64,000 nucleotides of DNA from Mytilus californianus (lineage: Eukaryota). Below, in pieces: positions 8,226-38,300 of this stretch (within the stretch, counting starts at the first letter, position 1; the number at the start of each line of letters is the position of its first letter). The stretch spans positions 1,054,001 to 1,118,000 of the forward strand of contig NW_026262695.1 of the NCBI RefSeq assembly GCF_021869535.1, read 5' to 3'. The position numbers are program-made.

Positions 8226-11200
8226 AGAAGATGTGATATGATTGCCAATGAGACAACTCTTTAAAATAGAAAAAATGCACAGGAATTGACAATTATAGTT
8301 CACCGTACGGCCTTCAACAATGAGTAAAACCCATATCGCATAGTCAGCTATAAAAGGCCCTTGAAATAACAAATGTAAAACAATCCAAACGAGAAAAGTA
8401 ATGGGCTGATGTTGATTTCACCAGTAATAAAAACTAACTTAACCAGTATTTTGCTTAAGTAATATAAAGAAAAAAATACTTCAAGAAACGGATATATTTT
8501 TCAGCTTCAAGTAAATGGAAATGCTATCATTATACATTCGCAAACAAATTTGCAATGATAAAATTTGGAGAAAAATCGATATGTGAAAAACATGGTCGGA
8601 GGTTCACAGAAGGCATAAATAAAAACTATCCAGGTTGTGGAACTTGCTGGTGCTGTCAGAAGCCAAAAGGTAAAACATTGTTAAAACAATAAAGACAAAT
8701 TTTAAATCATTTGGGATATTTTACCTATATAATTTCGTCAAAGGTAACTTGTGGTATTTTATTAACATCCGTTGGCCTCAGGACAATTATTAGACATAAG
8801 AAGATGTGGTAATAGTGCCAATGAGACAACTCTCCATCTAAGTCAAAATTTATAAAAGTAAACCATTATAGGTCACAGTACGGTCTTCAACACGGAGCCT
8901 TGGCTCACACCGAACAGTAAGATATAAAGGGCCCCAAAAAATTACTAGTGTAAAACCATTCAAACGGGAAAACCAACGGTCTAATCTATATTAAAAACGA
9001 CAAACGAGAAACACTTATGAACCACATCAGCAAACGACAACTACTGAACATCAGATTCCTTATGTTCATTTATGGTAGGTGATCTGTTATATTACCTTTC
9101 AGTTTTGTAAGAATCCTACTGAGCACCGCCGTCTTTGCTTATTTTATTATTCAAACGGTATCGTATGTTTTTTTCTTTTGAAATTGCATATATAAGCCAA
9201 CATTAAGAGCTGTCATAAGTCTTGGTCTAATTCCGGCTACAATGATTTTATATCATTCTAAGCTATAATTAAAATATATACTATAAAAATCCACTAATTC
9301 CAGACAAAAAACTGACAGCACAATGGCAGAAATCAGAATAACGACAAAAAAAAACAAAAAAACATAGGACAGTTTTGAAAAAAAAAGATTTTGTTTCCAT
9401 TCAGGTGGATTTAATATCGAATCAAATCTGGTTATGGATGTGAAATCTTCAATATGTACAAGTACCGATGTTTTATTCAGGACTAGTTTTACTACAGGTT
9501 AAAATAGGCCATAACCTCGATCTAGACGAGATAATTTGACAATATCATCGCTTCAAACGAAAGTTCACAAAACACTATACAGAAAACTAAAATAAAAGTT
9601 GAGAAACGCGAAACTCACCAAAACACACAGTGGTCTCTGGTGCTCCGGAAATGTTAGCAGATCATGTTCTACCATTGACACACGTCGTGTTACGCCTACA
9701 AATTACATTGATATGTTATAGTGATAAGGGATCACGCAATAACGGACTGGTAATTGACTCTTAACTAAGGTTTTCTCAAGCTTTTAGGCTCGATAGATGC
9801 ACATGTTTTGACAGTATTTCCAAAAATATTTTAGAGTTTACAGTATACACTGATGAAAGTATACCAGTTCTACTTATGGCTGTTGGAAAAGTTCGATATA
9901 AAACAAAATTGTGACCTTTTTCAGTTTTTTGATAAGTTGAAATTCAACGTCATAATTTTGTAAAAGTGGTTCTTTTAGCAACTAGACTTAGATTAGCCAA
10001 GAAACACCTACAAATCGACTAATATCAACAGTTACCGCTAGTATCTCAAAATTTAAACACTTAATACTAAATGGGAGTTGAATTCGTGTTGTCTAGCTTA
10101 AAGATTTTTTTGTAGCTTTTTTAATGAAATTTGTCATGCCATTTTGTATGTAAATTTTCTAAGCTGTCAAAAGAAAATCCAAACGCCAAATAGGTATAAA
10201 TATAAACTACTCTCAGATTATGGCATCAATGTAGATAATCCTAAAAGATTTAGTATCAAGTTTAAAATAATGGCTAGCAATGATGCCCATTTGGCTTTGA
10301 TATCTTTCAATAATGAGAACAAGCCTTTGTATGAGTTAGTATTATGTGGTTGGACTAACTATCTCCTTCAAAACCAATATGACACTTTCAGGGGGGGTCC
10401 GGATTGGGTTAACAGAGTGGAGAATAGTGTGAAAAATGTGCGGAATAAATGGCAAAATACATAAACAATACAGACAAATAGGGCAAACAAAAAAAGAATA
10501 GGAAATAATGGTGTGCTAAAATATAAAGAATAGAGAATAATGGGCAGAAAATTAAAAAAAATACAGACAAACCTAAAAAATTAAAGAAAACAGAAATGAC
10601 GGACCCCCATCTAAACCCTCATTTAGTTGTTACGATATACAGAAGCTTGGTTTTCCTATTATGCTTTCTTCGATAAAGGTTTGATGTGTAATCTTTAATT
10701 TTCTTTGTAGAGGTTTGAAGACTTGAATGTCTTTTGTATTGGAGGGGAGCATGCTGTTTTCTGTTTTGTTTCTATTAGTGCGATTTGGCCGTCTTCTATG
10801 CCTCTTTTTTTCTACTGACGTAAATTACATTTATATCTTAATAAAAGAGGGACGAAATATACAAGAGGGACAGTCAAATTGATTGGATGTAAAATTAGTG
10901 AGGAATTGTTTAAGGATATGTGGTTTTGCTGTAAAACATCTCTGCGTCCTTTTTTAAACATTTAACTATGAAAATTTCTTTTTTCTTCCACATTATTATT
11001 TCTTTTTGGCGTCTATTATGAATAATTAAAAACTATTTTTTACTCCCTACTATATTTATAATTAAGTAAGCAGTGCATGACATCGCTTAATAAAACTCTT
11101 GACTCTATTTATTTATTTATTTACACTTATCCTTTATGATATAGCCTCCAATATTATCAGAGCCATAAACTTTAGATTACACATAGTCAGGGATCATTTT

Positions 11201-35300: not shown

Positions 35301-38300
35301 CATAGTTTGTTTTTATAGTGATTAAGATTATATATTCTGTATCCATATTTTTTACTTTTTTACCTATTATGTCTGTTTGTTTTGCTCACACATTGCTGTC
35401 AATATAATGGAATTCAAAGCGACTGTCATACAATGGAGAGGTTTAGCTAGCTATAAAACCATTTTCTACCTAAGGAAATGCCTGTACCAAGTCATGAATA
35501 TGTTTTCCATTCGTTAGATGTGATTGAGCTTTTGATTTTTATTAAGGACTTTCCGTTTTGAATTTCCCTTGTACTCCGGTATTTTTGTTATTTTACTTTT
35601 GACCTAGCAATACATAGTTACATGAAACTAATTGCATTGTAAAACATTACTATATCAATCAAATACAGAAAAAAATAACCGCTTTATATATTTTCTTTTT
35701 ATAATTAGAGTTTTTTTTTTCTTCTTTGCAGATTTCATATCGTTATGAGGACTGAAAAGAATTCGAGGCATAGTGCATTCTCAATAAGTGTGTGCTAAGC
35801 TTTAACTATATCATCATATCATAAAATAAAATTGCAGATATTATTTTTCTATATTCATTCATCTAGAATTATAACAAAATAGTTCGAAAGATTTAAGCAT
35901 ACGAATTGTAATGATAGATTATGCATCTAGCTTTTAGACATGGATACAACAATAGATTGAATTTTTAGTATTTAGAAATAAAGTAATGTGGTATGATTGC
36001 CGATGAGAAAACTATCCACCATATGCCAAATTACATGAATACAAGGAACTATAGGACACCGTAAAGTCGTCAACAATGAACAAGATAAATACCGTATAGT
36101 TAGCTATAAAAAGCTCCGACATGACAACAAGTAAAACATTTCAAACGAGATATCCAACGTTCTGAATTACGACAAAACAATACACGAATAACAAATATGA
36201 CTAACAGCAACATATGGCAATGACTGTTTTAACTAAAGAATGTGACGGGATTAAACATGTTTGGAAGCGCTCAACCTTCCCCTAACCTTGGACAGTGGTG
36301 TTGGAACAACACATTATTAGAACAAACTGTAAAAGTCAGTTTTGAAATTACTTGACTCATCCGATTTGCACGAAATTCGAAGGAATTACTTGTTACATTA
36401 ACACAAAAGACACAAAGTACCGAGGTGCGTGTATGTATCGTGTGTTTGTGACATATACAAGAACAAGTCAAAGTTTTCAGACTTAACGCAGTAACATTCG
36501 AAAGGGACACAATAGTTCCTAGTTATTCCGTGTTAATTCGTTTTTTTATACGCCCGTTTACGAGATGTATTATGGTATACCGTTGTCCGTCTGTTCGACC
36601 GTCGTACCGTCTGTCCCTCCGTCTGTCCGTCCGTCTGTCCGTCCGTCGTCAACATGTTGGACAATAACTCAAAAACACTTTAACCAATTTGCATGAAATT
36701 TTGGTGAATTGTTTATATCTATTTAAGTAAGCTTTCTTTAAATTTTTATAAATTTTGGATTTTACTTTTCCGAGTTGTTGGGTTTTATTCATCAAAAAGG
36801 GGGATTTTTTAGTTTTCGGACAATAACTCATAAGCTTTAAGCAGTTTTCATGAAACTTTGGTGAATTGTTTATATCTATTGACGTAAGCTCCCTTTTGAT
36901 TTTTATTAATTTTAGATTTTACGTTTCCGAGATATGCAATTTTATTCATAAAAAGGGGGGATTTTCCAGTTTTCGGACAATAACTCAAAAGTGCTTTGAG
37001 CAGTTTTCATGAAACTTTGATGACTGGTTTATATCTATTAAAATTACCGCCCTTTAGTTTTTTTGTTTTTTTTTTTATAAATTTCTGATATGCCATTGAG
37101 GAGTTATAGAACTTTATTCTTTGAAAAAGTGACGAGCGTATCATGCTGTCATGGCGCAGCTCTTGATTTTCTTCTGTTTTACAAATATGCTTTACCCCTG
37201 TGAGTTTGACATGGGTAATGAATGGACTTTTTGATGTTATAATTAATACAGTAAAGTTTTGTTAAACATTGCATATGCTTATAATAGCTTCTGCTAAAGA
37301 CATAGTTTAACCCCGCCACATTCTGTATGTGCCTGTGACAAGTCAGGAGTCTGTTATTCAGTGGTTGTAGATTGTTGCTGTATATCATATTTGATTTTCC
37401 TTCATTGTTTTTCACATAAATTTATCAGGCCGTTATTTTTTTTGTTTGAAATGTTAAAAAAATACATTTTGTCATTTCAGGGCCGTGTATAGCTGACTAT
37501 GCGTTATGTGTTTTCCTCATTGTTGAAAGCCGTACGGTGACGTATAGTTGTTAACTGCTATGTCACTTGATCTCTTGTGGAGAGTTTTCTCATTGGCAAT
37601 CATACCACATCCTCTTATTCTTATATGGTGTACTCACGATTATGTTGTGTTTCGCATTGATCATGTTGATTATGCAAAATAGTAACCTTGGTTTAAGACA
37701 AACTGTTTTCCCCCGAATATTATGAAGAAAATAAAAAAGGGGGCATGATTGTTATTGACATGACTAATCTCAATGACGTAGATGTAAGCAGCTATTCTTC
37801 CCTGTACGGCCTTCAATCATATTGAAATCCCATATAAATCAATTTTTAATTTATGGGAGGTGCTATGTCTTCAGATGAGTCTATTACTTCGAATATATAT
37901 TCTTTGAATTATAACATGAAAATAAAGTAAAAAATTAAATTCTGACAAAAAATCAGATTACGCATTCTATATTTGTAGATATGAAAATAATACTATCTGT
38001 CTCCATGTAATGTAAAGGAATAAATCATTGTCTAGAAATTTCAGACACAAACAAAAATCACTATAAAATAATAGTTGTAATAAAGAAAATAGCTCTCTTA
38101 CTACGTGTTCAACATTGGCAGAAGCAGTCTAATTCTTTCAAAATGGTGTGCATAAACCTACAACTATTAGCCTACAAGGAATGCAAATGTCGTAAGAGTA
38201 ATATACAGGGAAACAAACCTCGACAGTTCAGTTACCAACAGAGTGCCTACTAGCTAGCATACTTGAGGACTGCTGTTTACGGTACACATAATACAGATGT

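What the first reader, a model, noticed from the sequence alone, without database searches (positions are those of the whole stretch)
8505..35748. Mosaic secreted protein joining FCGBP-type VWD-C8-TIL units with a rhamnose-type lectin and a terminal kringle
Seen: 16 exons with canonical splice sites and compatible phases join into one frame (3,422 nt summed, about 1,140 aa): Cys module-EGF-VWD-C8-TIL-EGF-SUEL-EGF-VWD-C8-TIL-EGF-linker-kringle. No TM segment is seen before the stop. The two VWD cassettes share intron phases and identical C8 (296 nt) and TIL (203 nt) exon sizes, so they arose by internal duplication. Known: VWD-C8-TIL assemblies drive polymerisation in mucins, FCGBP and VWF; SUEL binds rhamnose/galactose; kringles are ligand-binding modules. 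Inference: a polymer-forming mucus, matrix or immune lectin scaffold built by phase-1 exon shuffling. I know of no named protein with this combination.
Basis: partly seen in the sequence, partly recalled or inferred. Interest (0 to 1): 0.65.

Follow-up and report, generated by a model that had tools for sequence, protein, structure and literature searches.

The report
Mussel lectin–VWD–kringle mosaic gene
This is a real multi-exon mussel gene for a cysteine-rich mosaic protein of unknown function, but it belongs to a family already present as computer-predicted proteins in several Mytilus species, and this copy has lost some modules.

Summary
Exons with AG/GT borders and matching phases sum to 3,422 nt (8505-35748, + strand), but I count 17, not 16. 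Searched exon by exon, Pfam confirms EGF, 2x(VWD-C8-TIL-EGF_3), SUEL and kringle.

The combination is not unnamed. Predicted Mytilus proteins have the same module order: "IgGFc-binding protein-like" XP_052075053.1 (94% identical over matched exons), M. coruscus "Zonadhesin" CAC5361395.1 (93%) and "zonadhesin-like" XP_052103624.1. The last six exons match "plasminogen-like" XP_052086105.1 (269 of 273 residues). No paper on the family was found.

The family's signal-peptide exon is not in the window. This copy also lacks modules its relatives have and has GDQH instead of GDPH in VWD2. Its private amino-acid changes number 26, against 11 and 14 in two relatives.

Best reading: a still-open, module-depleted family member, probably a secreted glycan-binding cross-linker of mucus or adhesive secretions. 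A decaying pseudogene is the main rival. Ordinary-to-moderate interest.

The parts
2094..2369 (+). Dead SUEL-lectin exon (relic of an N-terminal module)
   Evidence: Pfam SUEL 2.3e-9 on ORF piece 2033-2311. It matches the first SUEL of XP_052103624.1 (P0020 residues 23-87, 77% identical) but needs three reading frames. It also has an in-frame stop, a lost first Cys and no usable 3' end.
6120..6239 (+). Dead EGF-like exon
   Evidence: 73% identical to P0020 residues 112-152, with an in-frame TAA and the first Cys lost.
6806..6913 (+). Dead EGF-like exon
   Evidence: 66% identical to P0020 residues 155-189, with an in-frame TAG in place of a Cys and a second Cys lost.
8505..8669 (+). E1: 54-aa six-Cys module of no known family (phase 1/1)
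   Evidence: 48/54 identical to P0014 residues 22-75. No Pfam hit. No credible PDB sequence hit (one hit, E = 0.1). No fold hit: 0 of 22 listed matches with E <= 0.001. The Atlas best score was 0.80. The unit occurs 6 times in M. trossulus P0009.
10164..10359 (+). Dead FAMeT-like (Methyltransf_FA) exon
   Evidence: 86% identical to P0015 residues 77-141, which lie in its PF12248 domain. The acceptor gives phase 2 against the phase-1 donor of E1, and the homology stops at 10359. Residues 142-215 of P0015 are found nowhere in the window.
11445..11552 (+). E2: EGF (phase 1/1)
   Evidence: Pfam EGF_Teneurin 1.2e-5; 31/34 identical to P0014.
12710..12957 (+). E3: VWD1, N-terminal half, with a GDPH motif (phase 1/0)
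   Evidence: Pfam VWD model 1-83, 3.4e-17. The translation reads SGDPHYRSFDG. It has a 2-aa in-frame insertion relative to P0014 and P0015.
15227..15522 (+). E4: VWD1, C-terminal half (phase 0/2)
   Evidence: Pfam VWD model 85-155, 4.9e-12; 93/98 identical to P0014.
16390..16685 (+). E5: C8-1, 296 nt (phase 2/1)
   Evidence: Pfam C8 7.6e-12; 9 Cys, all aligned with E12.
17572..17774 (+). E6: TIL-1, 203 nt (phase 1/0)
   Evidence: Pfam TIL 3.7e-12.
18630..18822 (+). E7: Cys-rich stretch in the place of the E module, plus EGF_3 (phase 0/1)
   Evidence: Pfam EGF_3 3.7e-9 on the second half. The 'E module' reading of the first half is inference from position only.
19733..20026 (+). E8: SUEL / rhamnose-binding lectin domain (phase 1/1)
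   Evidence: Pfam SUEL 1.4e-20. Best PDB sequence hits are 5h4s (3.9e-58 over three repeats) and CSL3 2zx0. It has 8 Cys and keeps the YGR and DPCxGTYKY motifs.
20766..20876 (+). E9: EGF-like (phase 1/1)
   Evidence: Only sub-threshold Pfam EGF hits. It has 6 Cys and is 33/36 identical to P0015.
21683..21927 (+). E10: VWD2, N-terminal half, GDQH instead of GDPH (phase 1/0)
   Evidence: Pfam VWD model 1-79, 5.4e-11. It carries 7 of the 26 changes private to this copy, including P->Q in the motif.
22841..23145 (+). E11: VWD2, C-terminal half (phase 0/2)
   Evidence: Pfam VWD model 78-155, 1e-12; 101/101 identical to P0015.
26967..27262 (+). E12: C8-2, 296 nt (phase 2/1)
   Evidence: Pfam C8 6e-12. 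XP_052086105.1 (P0010) starts at a Met inside this exon.
28353..28555 (+). E13: TIL-2, 203 nt (phase 1/0)
   Evidence: Pfam TIL 2.4e-12; 66/67 identical to P0010.
30502..30691 (+). E14: Cys-rich stretch plus EGF_3 (phase 0/1)
   Evidence: Pfam EGF_3 2.9e-9; 63/63 identical to P0010.
33599..33625 (+). 27-nt linker exon (phase 1/1)
   Evidence: Encodes PEDQENVD, 7/8 identical to P0010 and P0014. It has an AG acceptor and a GTGAGT donor.
34347..34571 (+). Kringle exon (phase 1/1)
   Evidence: Pfam Kringle 1.5e-22; 73/74 identical to P0010. Aligned with plasminogen kringles, it has N and S where kringle 4 has its two Asp, and a loop 5 residues shorter.
35732..35748 (+). Terminal exon encoding the DFISL tail and the TGA stop
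   Evidence: A strong polypyrimidine acceptor, and a tail identical to the C-terminus of P0010. AATAAA lies at 35825.

Best explanation
Window 2.0-35.7 kb (+ strand) holds one copy of a Mytilus-restricted family of cysteine-rich mosaic proteins built from phase-1 module exons.

Shown:
- A 17-exon, 3,422-nt open chain encodes a six-Cys module, EGF, [VWD-C8-TIL-E/EGF_3], SUEL lectin, EGF, [VWD-C8-TIL-E/EGF_3], linker, kringle and a DFISL tail.
- It is colinear with the predicted proteins XP_052075053.1 and CAC5361395.1.
- Its 3' part is the locus of XP_052086105.1.
- Four module exons are dead: SUEL, two EGF and a FAMeT-like exon.
- The family's signal-peptide exon is not within the window.

Inferred:
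- The dead exons are skipped, and a signal-peptide exon further upstream is spliced to E1. This happens in relatives whose models join the signal peptide directly to this module.
- The product is secreted.
- Its two D assemblies give disulfide-bonded association and cross-linking. VWD1 self-cleaves at GDPH; VWD2 (GDQH) does not.
- The SUEL domain binds rhamnose/galactose-type glycans.
- The kringle, lacking the acidic pair of lysine-binding kringles, serves as a protein-contact module.
- Overall it would act as a glycan-binding cohesive or cross-linking component of mucus or adhesive secretion, or as a microbe-agglutinating scaffold, like FCGBP in mucus and the lectin-EGF-VWD-C8-TIL cohesive proteins of sea stars and flatworms.
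For: - Exon chain, phases and sum.
- Domains.
- Colinearity and identity to P0014 (1054/1122), P0015 (1037/1118) and P0010 (269/273 over E12-E16).
- All 97 Cys of the full codons align with a Cys in both P0014 and P0015 (0 mismatches).
- Relatives begin with MEARPGVF...-type signal peptides joined directly to the E1 module (P0014, P0015, P0006, P0036).
- Models that differ by exact modules show cassette use of these exons.
- The chain is intact while the neighbouring relic exons carry stops and frameshifts. This argues that the chain was kept after the modules were lost.
- SUEL motifs are kept.
- GDPH cleavage and its dependence on the motif's Asp and His: PMC10880436, abstract and section 2.4 read.
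- Analogous lectin-EGF-VWD-C8-TIL adhesive proteins: PMC9229212, PMC6410801 and PMC7333891, passages read.
Against: - No signal-peptide exon was found. tblastn with the relatives' first 22 residues gave no convincing hit: the best was E = 0.077, on the opposite strand. An ATG/hydrophobic/phase-1-donor scan of 1-8504 gave 3 candidates, none resembling the family's signal peptide, two of them (one ATG at 2481) inside an interspersed repeat.
- Four dead exons lie in or before the gene.
- This copy has 26 private amino-acid changes against 11 (P0014) and 14 (P0015), over 925 columns where two outgroups agree. My arithmetic on those counts gives chi-square 6.1 and 3.6. Seven of the 26 cluster in E10 and destroy the GDPH motif.
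- The only protein model found for this locus (P0010, 281 aa) covers just the last six exons. No model within reach of the word-based searches covers E1-E11 at more than 94-95%.
- There is no expression or protein evidence of any kind. The function rests on domain analogy alone.
Confidence: 0.55

Rival explanations
1. The whole locus is an unprocessed pseudogene, or a copy that is being lost. It would be a 5'-decayed paralogue whose remaining exons are still open only because the decay is recent.
For: - Three dead N-terminal exons and one dead internal exon.
- No signal-peptide exon in 8.5 kb upstream.
- About twofold more private substitutions than two close relatives. These include loss of GDPH, a Gly->Arg in the conserved HFMG motif, and loss of both kringle acidic positions.
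- The database holds only a 281-aa model for this locus.
Against: - 3,422 nt in 17 exons carry no stop or frameshift, and every splice site is AG/GT.
- The only indel is in frame.
- 97 of 97 Cys are kept.
- By my rough estimate (inference, not a computation on data), a branch with 26 replacements evolving neutrally should also have collected one or two stops and several frameshifts, as the relic exons beside it did.
- The signal-peptide exon may simply lie beyond the window's left edge.
Confidence: 0.35
2. Two genes: a 5' VWD/SUEL gene, and a separate 3' 'plasminogen-like' gene that starts in or near E12, as the RefSeq model XP_052086105.1 suggests.
For: P0010 begins with a Met inside E12 and runs to the same DFISL end.
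Against: - That Met lies inside a C8 domain: Pfam matches only model positions 20-68 of 68.
- The model has no signal peptide.
- Three full-length relatives (P0014, P0015, P0020) run straight across this point with contiguous coordinates.
- The E11/E12 phases match.
- So the short model looks truncated.
Confidence: 0.06
3. A true orthologue of vertebrate FCGBP, zonadhesin, plasminogen or a gel-forming mucin, as the database names imply.
For: It shares domain types only (VWD, C8, TIL, kringle).
Against: - Two D assemblies, not 13.
- No PTS region: S+T+P is 19% overall.
- Pfam, at E <= 0.1, gave no cystine-knot, MAM, PAN or protease hit on the 16 ORF pieces sent; the tail exon was not among them.
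- No TM segment.
- The nearest non-Mytilus VWD hits are fish and caecilian mucins at 25-29% identity.
Confidence: 0.02

Closest known systems
Predicted Mytilus proteins XP_052075053.1 ('IgGFc-binding protein-like X1', M. californianus, 1,359 aa) and CAC5361395.1 ('Zonadhesin', M. coruscus, 1,431 aa)
   Same: - The same module order: Cys module, EGF, VWD-C8-TIL-EGF_3, SUEL, EGF, VWD-C8-TIL-EGF_3, linker, kringle.
- 94% and 93% identity over matched exons.
- Every Cys conserved.
   Different: - The relatives also have a signal peptide, and a WSC domain (XP_052075053.1) or an intact Methyltransf_FA domain (CAC5361395.1) after the Cys module.
- They have a further 33-aa EGF-like unit and an ~80-aa Cys-rich C-terminal domain.
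- They have GDPH in both VWDs.
- The window copy has none of these within 64 kb. It ends in the short DFISL tail seen in XP_052086105.1 and, as DSISL/DSMSL, in M. edulis P0006 and P0005.
XP_052103624.1 ('zonadhesin-like', M. californianus, 3,643 aa) and VDI14319.1 (M. galloprovincialis, 2,400 aa)
   Same: They contain the same double cassette with SUEL between the two copies and kringle(s) at the end. Their N-terminal SUEL-EGF-EGF matches the dead exons at 2.1, 6.1 and 6.8 kb.
   Different: They are much longer: WSC and EGF repeats before the cassette (both; P0099 first 240 residues read); dozens of EGF-like repeats and three kringles in P0020, two kringle stretches in P0099. They are 82-94% identical per exon (P0020).
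FCGBP (vertebrate mucus protein)
   Same: Secreted repeats of VWD-C8-TIL-E with GDPH self-cleavage sites (PMC10880436, abstract and section 2.4; PMC8267560, search listing only). The PTS and cystine-knot statements below rest on recall.
   Different: FCGBP has 13 VWD domains, 11 with GDPH. This protein has 2, only 1 with GDPH. FCGBP has no lectin, EGF or kringle modules.
Cohesive proteins of temporary adhesives: sea star Sfp1, flatworm Mlig-ap1 / Tmed-ap1, limpet P-vulgata_1/2/4
   Same: Cysteine-rich secreted proteins that combine a lectin domain, EGF and VWD-C8-TIL (PMC6410801, PMC9229212, PMC7333891; passages read). This is a 'works like' comparison only.
   Different: - The lectin is C-type in flatworms and galactose-binding in Sfp1.
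- None of those proteins carries a kringle. In Theama mediterranea the kringles sit on a separate membrane protein, Tmed-krg1.
- There are no tissue or secretion data for the Mytilus family.
Rhamnose-binding (SUEL-type) lectins, e.g. CSL3 (2zx0) and the lectin of 5h4s
   Same: E8 matches each repeat with 8 Cys and the YGR and DPCxGTYKY motifs.
   Different: Here it is a single domain embedded in a large mosaic, not a tandem-repeat lectin. Sugar binding is untested.
Kringles of plasminogen, HGF, apolipoprotein(a), ROR
   Same: Pfam Kringle at 80 bits; six Cys; 4a5t plasminogen 8.9e-84 over five repeats.
   Different: - No PAN or protease partner domains.
- N and S sit where plasminogen kringle 4 has the two Asp.
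- One loop is 5 residues shorter. The role of those Asp in lysine binding is recalled, not tested.

Membership tests
D-assembly proteins (VWD-C8-TIL) | Full VWD domain followed by C8 and TIL | tested here: met
   Found twice. VWD model positions 1-83 plus 85-155, and 1-79 plus 78-155. C8 at 7.6e-12 and 6e-12. TIL at 3.7e-12 and 2.4e-12.
Mytilus 'IgGFc-binding protein-like / zonadhesin-like' mosaic family | Exon-by-exon colinearity with family members | tested here: met
   Contiguous coordinates on P0014 and P0015. Identity is 85-98% to P0014 and 76-100% to P0015 per tblastn hit; summed per exon 1054/1122 and 1037/1118.
Mytilus 'IgGFc-binding protein-like / zonadhesin-like' mosaic family | N-terminal signal peptide (MEARPGVF... 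type) | tested here: not met
   Not found on the + strand of 1-8504. It may lie outside the window.
FCGBP | About 13 tandem VWD assemblies, most with GDPH | tested here: not met
   Two assemblies; GDPH in VWD1 only and GDQH in VWD2.
Gel-forming mucins | Central Pro/Thr/Ser-rich domain | tested here: not met
   S+T+P is 19% of 1,123 residues, and no exon of that type exists.
Gel-forming mucins / VWF | C-terminal cystine-knot dimerisation domain | tested here: not met
   The C-terminus is a kringle plus DFISL. No such Pfam hit among the 16 pieces.
Zonadhesin | MAM domains and a C-terminal transmembrane anchor | tested here: not met
   No MAM hit. Maximum KD19 is 1.19, so no TM segment.
SUEL / rhamnose-binding lectin domain | PF02140 above cut-off, 8 Cys, YGR and DPC...KY motifs | tested here: met
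   73.8 bits against a cut-off of 31.4. Cys count and motifs read. That these motifs define the family is recalled.
SUEL / rhamnose-binding lectin domain | Binding of L-rhamnose / D-galactose | not testable with these tools
   Needs recombinant protein and a glycan array.
Kringle | PF00051 above cut-off with six Cys | tested here: met
   80.1 bits against 34.3; 6 Cys.
Lysine-binding kringles (plasminogen K1/K4 type) | Acidic pair in the NPD-x-D loop | tested here: not met
   The window's NPNNSGQPWC aligns with K4's NPDADKGPWC. The functional role of these residues is recalled.
Plasminogen / HGF | PAN domain before the kringles and a serine-protease domain after them | tested here: not met
   No such Pfam hits in the exon pieces or in 132 other ORFs of the window.
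Temporary-adhesive cohesive proteins (Sfp1 / ap1 type) | Expression in adhesive glands and presence in the secreted footprint | not testable with these tools
   No expression or proteome data are reachable. The domain resemblance is only a lead.

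The most novel reading that the evidence does not exclude
The locus may be a snapshot of a Mytilus-specific system of diversifying secreted recognition and cross-linking proteins. In this reading, phase-1 module exons (SUEL, WSC, FAMeT-like, EGF, the family-specific six-Cys unit, kringle) are gained, swapped, skipped and killed around a conserved double D-assembly core. 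Each paralogue, and perhaps each isoform and individual, would then display a different lectin/adaptor set for binding microbes, food particles or secretion partners. The dead exons in the introns would be the fossil record of that turnover, and the six-Cys unit would be a new domain.
Probability: 0.2. Interest if true: 0.55.

Novelty: new member of a known kind. Interest (0 to 1): 0.3.

Why it matters
The gene is real and its architecture is unusual. Among the 150 best of 7,086 kringle-bearing cluster representatives, only 2 also had VWD/C8/TIL, and both were Mytilus. It is not a discovery of a new protein class, because predicted proteins with the same design are already deposited for several Mytilus species.

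The useful points are modest:
- The database names (FCGBP-like, zonadhesin-like, plasminogen-like) mislead, and the 281-aa model for this locus looks truncated.
- The family is a clean example of phase-1 exon shuffling with cassette-type module use, and here with module death visible in the introns.
- It offers uncharacterised candidates for mussel mucus, adhesion or immune-lectin studies.
- It includes a 54-aa six-Cys module with no family or fold match.

Tried and rejected
- Signal-peptide exon. tblastn with the first 22 residues of P0014 and P0015 gave only chance-level hits. The best (E = 0.077) lies on the minus strand. A scan for ATG, hydrophobic run and phase-1 donor in 1-8504 gave 3 candidates, none resembling the family's signal peptide, two of them (one ATG at 2481) inside an interspersed repeat.
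- Missing modules. The second half of the FAMeT-like domain, a WSC domain, the extra EGF-like unit and the C-terminal domain of P0014/P0015 were not found in the window, even at word size 2 and E <= 10.
- ORF 33146-33361 as the linker. Rejected: no Pfam hit, and the true linker is at 33599-33625.
- Identity of the E1 module. No Pfam hit. Protein Atlas best score 0.80, below the level that means anything. One PDB sequence hit at E = 0.1. AlphaFold2 gave pLDDT 66.7 alone and 73.4 with 9 relatives. Foldseek against PDB gave 0 of 22 listed matches with E <= 0.001.
- Literature. Seven full-text searches found no paper describing a Mytilus VWD-SUEL-kringle protein. Hits concerned limpet, flatworm, oyster and clam proteins or FCGBP. 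Supplementary tables, which were closed, could still list family members in transcriptome or proteome studies.
- Wider family. The E4 and E1 'longer' searches returned only Mytilus relatives. These are word-based and weak for distant kin.
- No tRNA genes in the window.
- Not done. The exons were never joined, so no search, fold or complex prediction of the spliced protein was made. Complex prediction was not used. The closed collections metagenome contigs and viral contigs were not searched. No eukaryotic genome collection was available to extend the locus leftwards.

Full report
**Scope and method.** The exons were never joined into one protein, so no search, fold or complex prediction of the joined product exists, and statements about the whole protein are sums of per-exon results. 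The window is AT-rich (32% G+C) with one N run at 40424-40659, which I left alone. It is not human. Its closest database proteins are all from Mytilus, and four exons plus the linker match M. californianus XP_052086105.1 at 269 of 273 residues. I therefore take it for M. californianus or a very close relative (inference).

**The observation.** Stop-to-stop ORFs on the + strand between 8.4 and 34.6 kb carry the expected domains.
- Of 16 pieces sent to Pfam, 13 hit a family above its curated cut-off: EGF, four VWD halves, two C8, two TIL, two EGF_3, SUEL 1.4e-20 and Kringle 1.5e-22.
- E9 gave only weak EGF hits, and E1 gave none.
- The piece 33146-33361 gave none and turned out not to be an exon.
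- Splice-site listing, tblastn with full-length relatives and a phase table give 17 exons. All have AG/GT borders, the phases chain without a break, and the total is exactly 3,422 nt, ending at the TGA at 35746-35748.
The count of 16 exons is off by one.
- The C8 exons are both 296 nt and the TIL exons both 203 nt. E4 is also 296 nt.
- No exon has a 19-residue hydrophobic mean above 1.19, so there is no membrane span.
- The 1,123 full codons hold 97 Cys (8.6%). S+T+P is 19%, and there are more basic than acidic residues (157 against 117).

**Internal duplication and exon shuffling.** The repeated unit is six exons: EGF, VWD-N, VWD-C, C8, TIL and a Cys-rich stretch plus EGF_3.
- The two copies share all phases. 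They are 44, 46, 49, 40, 67 and 39% identical at the protein level and 53-69% at the DNA level.
- The duplication is old: the double cassette is found in the relatives of three species (M. californianus, M. coruscus, M. galloprovincialis).
- Every module border is phase 1.
- Annotated isoforms of the M. californianus paralogue differ from each other by exactly the 33-aa EGF-like unit (X2) or exactly the 75-aa kringle (X3), with no other mismatch.
- Two M. galloprovincialis models differ by exactly the 134-aa SUEL+EGF block.
- This is what cassette use of symmetric phase-1 exons looks like. These are database models, though, and I saw no transcripts.

**What it is.** Exon-level searches found the same architecture already deposited:
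- XP_052075053.1, 'IgGFc-binding protein-like X1', M. californianus, 1,359 aa.
- CAC5361395.1, UniProt name 'Zonadhesin', M. coruscus, 1,431 aa.
- XP_052103624.1, 'zonadhesin-like', M. californianus, 3,643 aa.
- VDI14319.1, M. galloprovincialis, 2,400 aa.
- Shorter VWD+kringle forms in M. edulis.

The window's exons are colinear with the first two at 1054/1122 and 1037/1118 identities, with none of the 97 Cys unmatched.

All named relatives are Mytilus. The next VWD hits are fish and caecilian mucins at 25-29%. An exhaustive HMMER search with the kringle exon found 7,086 cluster representatives. Among the best 150, only 2 (P0099 and P0005, both Mytilus) also matched the window's VWD, C8 and TIL exons, and 4 matched SUEL: P0099, M. 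edulis P0053 and two Branchiostoma proteins. So the combination is rare and, as far as these limited searches reach, confined to the genus. It is not unnamed.

Seven literature searches found no study of these proteins. Supplementary tables were closed and could hold them.

1. Between E1 and E2 lies a relic of a FAMeT-like (Methyltransf_FA) exon at 10164-10359. It is 86% identical to the first half of that domain in the M. coruscus protein. Its acceptor gives phase 2 where phase 1 is needed, and the second half of the domain is nowhere in the window.
2. Upstream of E1 lie three more relics. They match the N-terminal SUEL-EGF-EGF of XP_052103624.1 and the SUEL-EGF-Cys-EGF-VWD order of M. galloprovincialis VDI32520.1/VDI32522.1:
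   - a SUEL exon at 2094-2369 that needs three frames, has an in-frame stop and has lost its first Cys;
   - an EGF at 6120-6239 with an in-frame TAA;
   - an EGF at 6806-6913 with an in-frame TAG.
3. The signal-peptide exon that opens the full-length relatives read here (MEARPGVF... / MAARHGVF...) is not detectable in the 8.5 kb before E1. It may lie left of the window.
4. Compared with its two closest relatives, this copy also lacks the WSC domain, the extra EGF-like unit and the ~80-aa C-terminal domain. It ends instead in the short DFISL tail.

**Working gene or decaying copy?**

For a working gene:
- 3,422 nt stay open across 17 exons, with canonical sites throughout.
- The one indel is in frame.
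- Every Cys is kept, while the relic exons next door have collected stops and frameshifts.

For decay:
- The missing signal-peptide exon and the relics.
- A relative-rate count. Over 925 columns where the outgroups P0020 and P0099 agree, the window has 26 private changes, against 11 for P0014 and 14 for P0015. The three form an unresolved star, with shared-derived counts of 4, 5 and 4. By my arithmetic that is chi-square 6.1 and 3.6.
- Seven of the 26 changes lie in E10 and turn GDPH into GDQH. Five lie in the kringle.
- The only protein model for this locus, XP_052086105.1 (281 aa), starts at a Met inside the C8 exon E12, where Pfam sees only model positions 20-68 of 68. It looks truncated.

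I put a still-coding gene at about 0.55 and a pseudogene at about 0.35.

**How it most likely works (inferred).**
- D assemblies of the VWD-C8-TIL-E type are the association and cross-linking units of VWF, mucins and FCGBP (established knowledge).
- In FCGBP the GDPH motif is cleaved between Asp and Pro, and mutating its Asp or His blocks cleavage (PMC10880436, abstract and section 2.4). VWD1 here keeps GDPH. VWD2 has lost the Asp-Pro bond.
- The SUEL domain keeps its 8 Cys and the YGR and DPCxGTYKY motifs, and it matches each repeat of rhamnose-binding lectins 5h4s and 2zx0.
- The kringle has N and S where plasminogen kringle 4 has its two Asp, and one loop is 5 residues shorter. It probably binds something other than lysine.
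- There is no PTS region, cystine knot, MAM domain or membrane anchor. It is therefore neither a gel-forming mucin nor a zonadhesin, and it is a relative of FCGBP only in domain type.
- The nearest functional analogues are the lectin-EGF-VWD-C8-TIL cohesive proteins of temporary adhesives: sea star Sfp1, flatworm ap1 and the limpet mucus proteins (PMC6410801, PMC9229212, PMC7333891; passages read).
- In the flatworm Theama mediterranea, a separate kringle protein is proposed to bind the lysine-rich cohesive protein (PMC9229212).
- A glycan-binding cross-linker of mucus or adhesive secretion, or a microbe agglutinin, is thus the best guess. Nothing here tests it.

**The six-Cys module (E1).** It is a mobile 54-aa unit, present once in most relatives and six times in M. 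trossulus P0009. It has no Pfam hit, no credible PDB sequence hit, no meaningful Atlas hit and no fold match. The fold model is only moderately confident (pLDDT 73.4).

**Verdict.** The novelty is low, because this is a module-depleted copy of a family already present as predictions. The unsettled question is whether this copy is still expressed.

Noticed in passing
window 24613-25079, 26305-26778, 3087-3554: Three copies of a ~470-bp interspersed repeat (87% and 76-77% identical). Two of them lie in the 3.8-kb intron between E11 and E12.
   Followed up: partly
window 25086-25560: A tandem array of a 118-bp unit, 4 copies at 95% match, in the same intron.
   Followed up: no
window 29295-29337: An uninterrupted run of 43 C in the intron between E13 and E14.
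   Followed up: no
window 12327-12589, 28023-28324 (inverted), 54287-54590: A ~265-300-bp repeat at 88-92% identity. Copies sit just upstream of E3 and, inverted, just upstream of E13. Another family (17911-18291 and 31350-31732, 87%) sits in the introns after E6 and after E14.
   Followed up: no
window 2463-2737, 6293-6450, 49420-49743, 51355-51702, 63614-64000 and others: A widely scattered repeat whose ORF-like translation reads ...SFLCCV...FCHGVVSLFSIYEFE.... It produced two of the three false 'signal-peptide' candidates.
   Followed up: no
window 47066-49388 (+), with a related piece at 41403-41828: Remains of a retroelement. ORFs in shifting frames include a reverse-transcriptase match: RVT_1 at 1.1e-5, 25.7 bits, below the 29.6-bit cut-off.
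   Followed up: no
window 56499-59548 (+): A run of long ORFs (121-209 aa) in shifting frames with no Pfam hit at E <= 0.001. It looks like a degraded mobile-element gene.
   Followed up: no
window 40424-40659: The N run is flanked by short simple-codon runs, about 4-5 residues each side (Ser/Asp/His-type depending on frame). It was left as it is.
   Followed up: no
stored proteins P0014, P0017, P0018; P0035, P0036: Database isoforms of relatives differ by exact single modules: a 33-aa EGF-like unit, the 75-aa kringle, and a 134-aa SUEL+EGF block. The 'terminal kringle' is therefore optional in the paralogue's models.
   Followed up: yes
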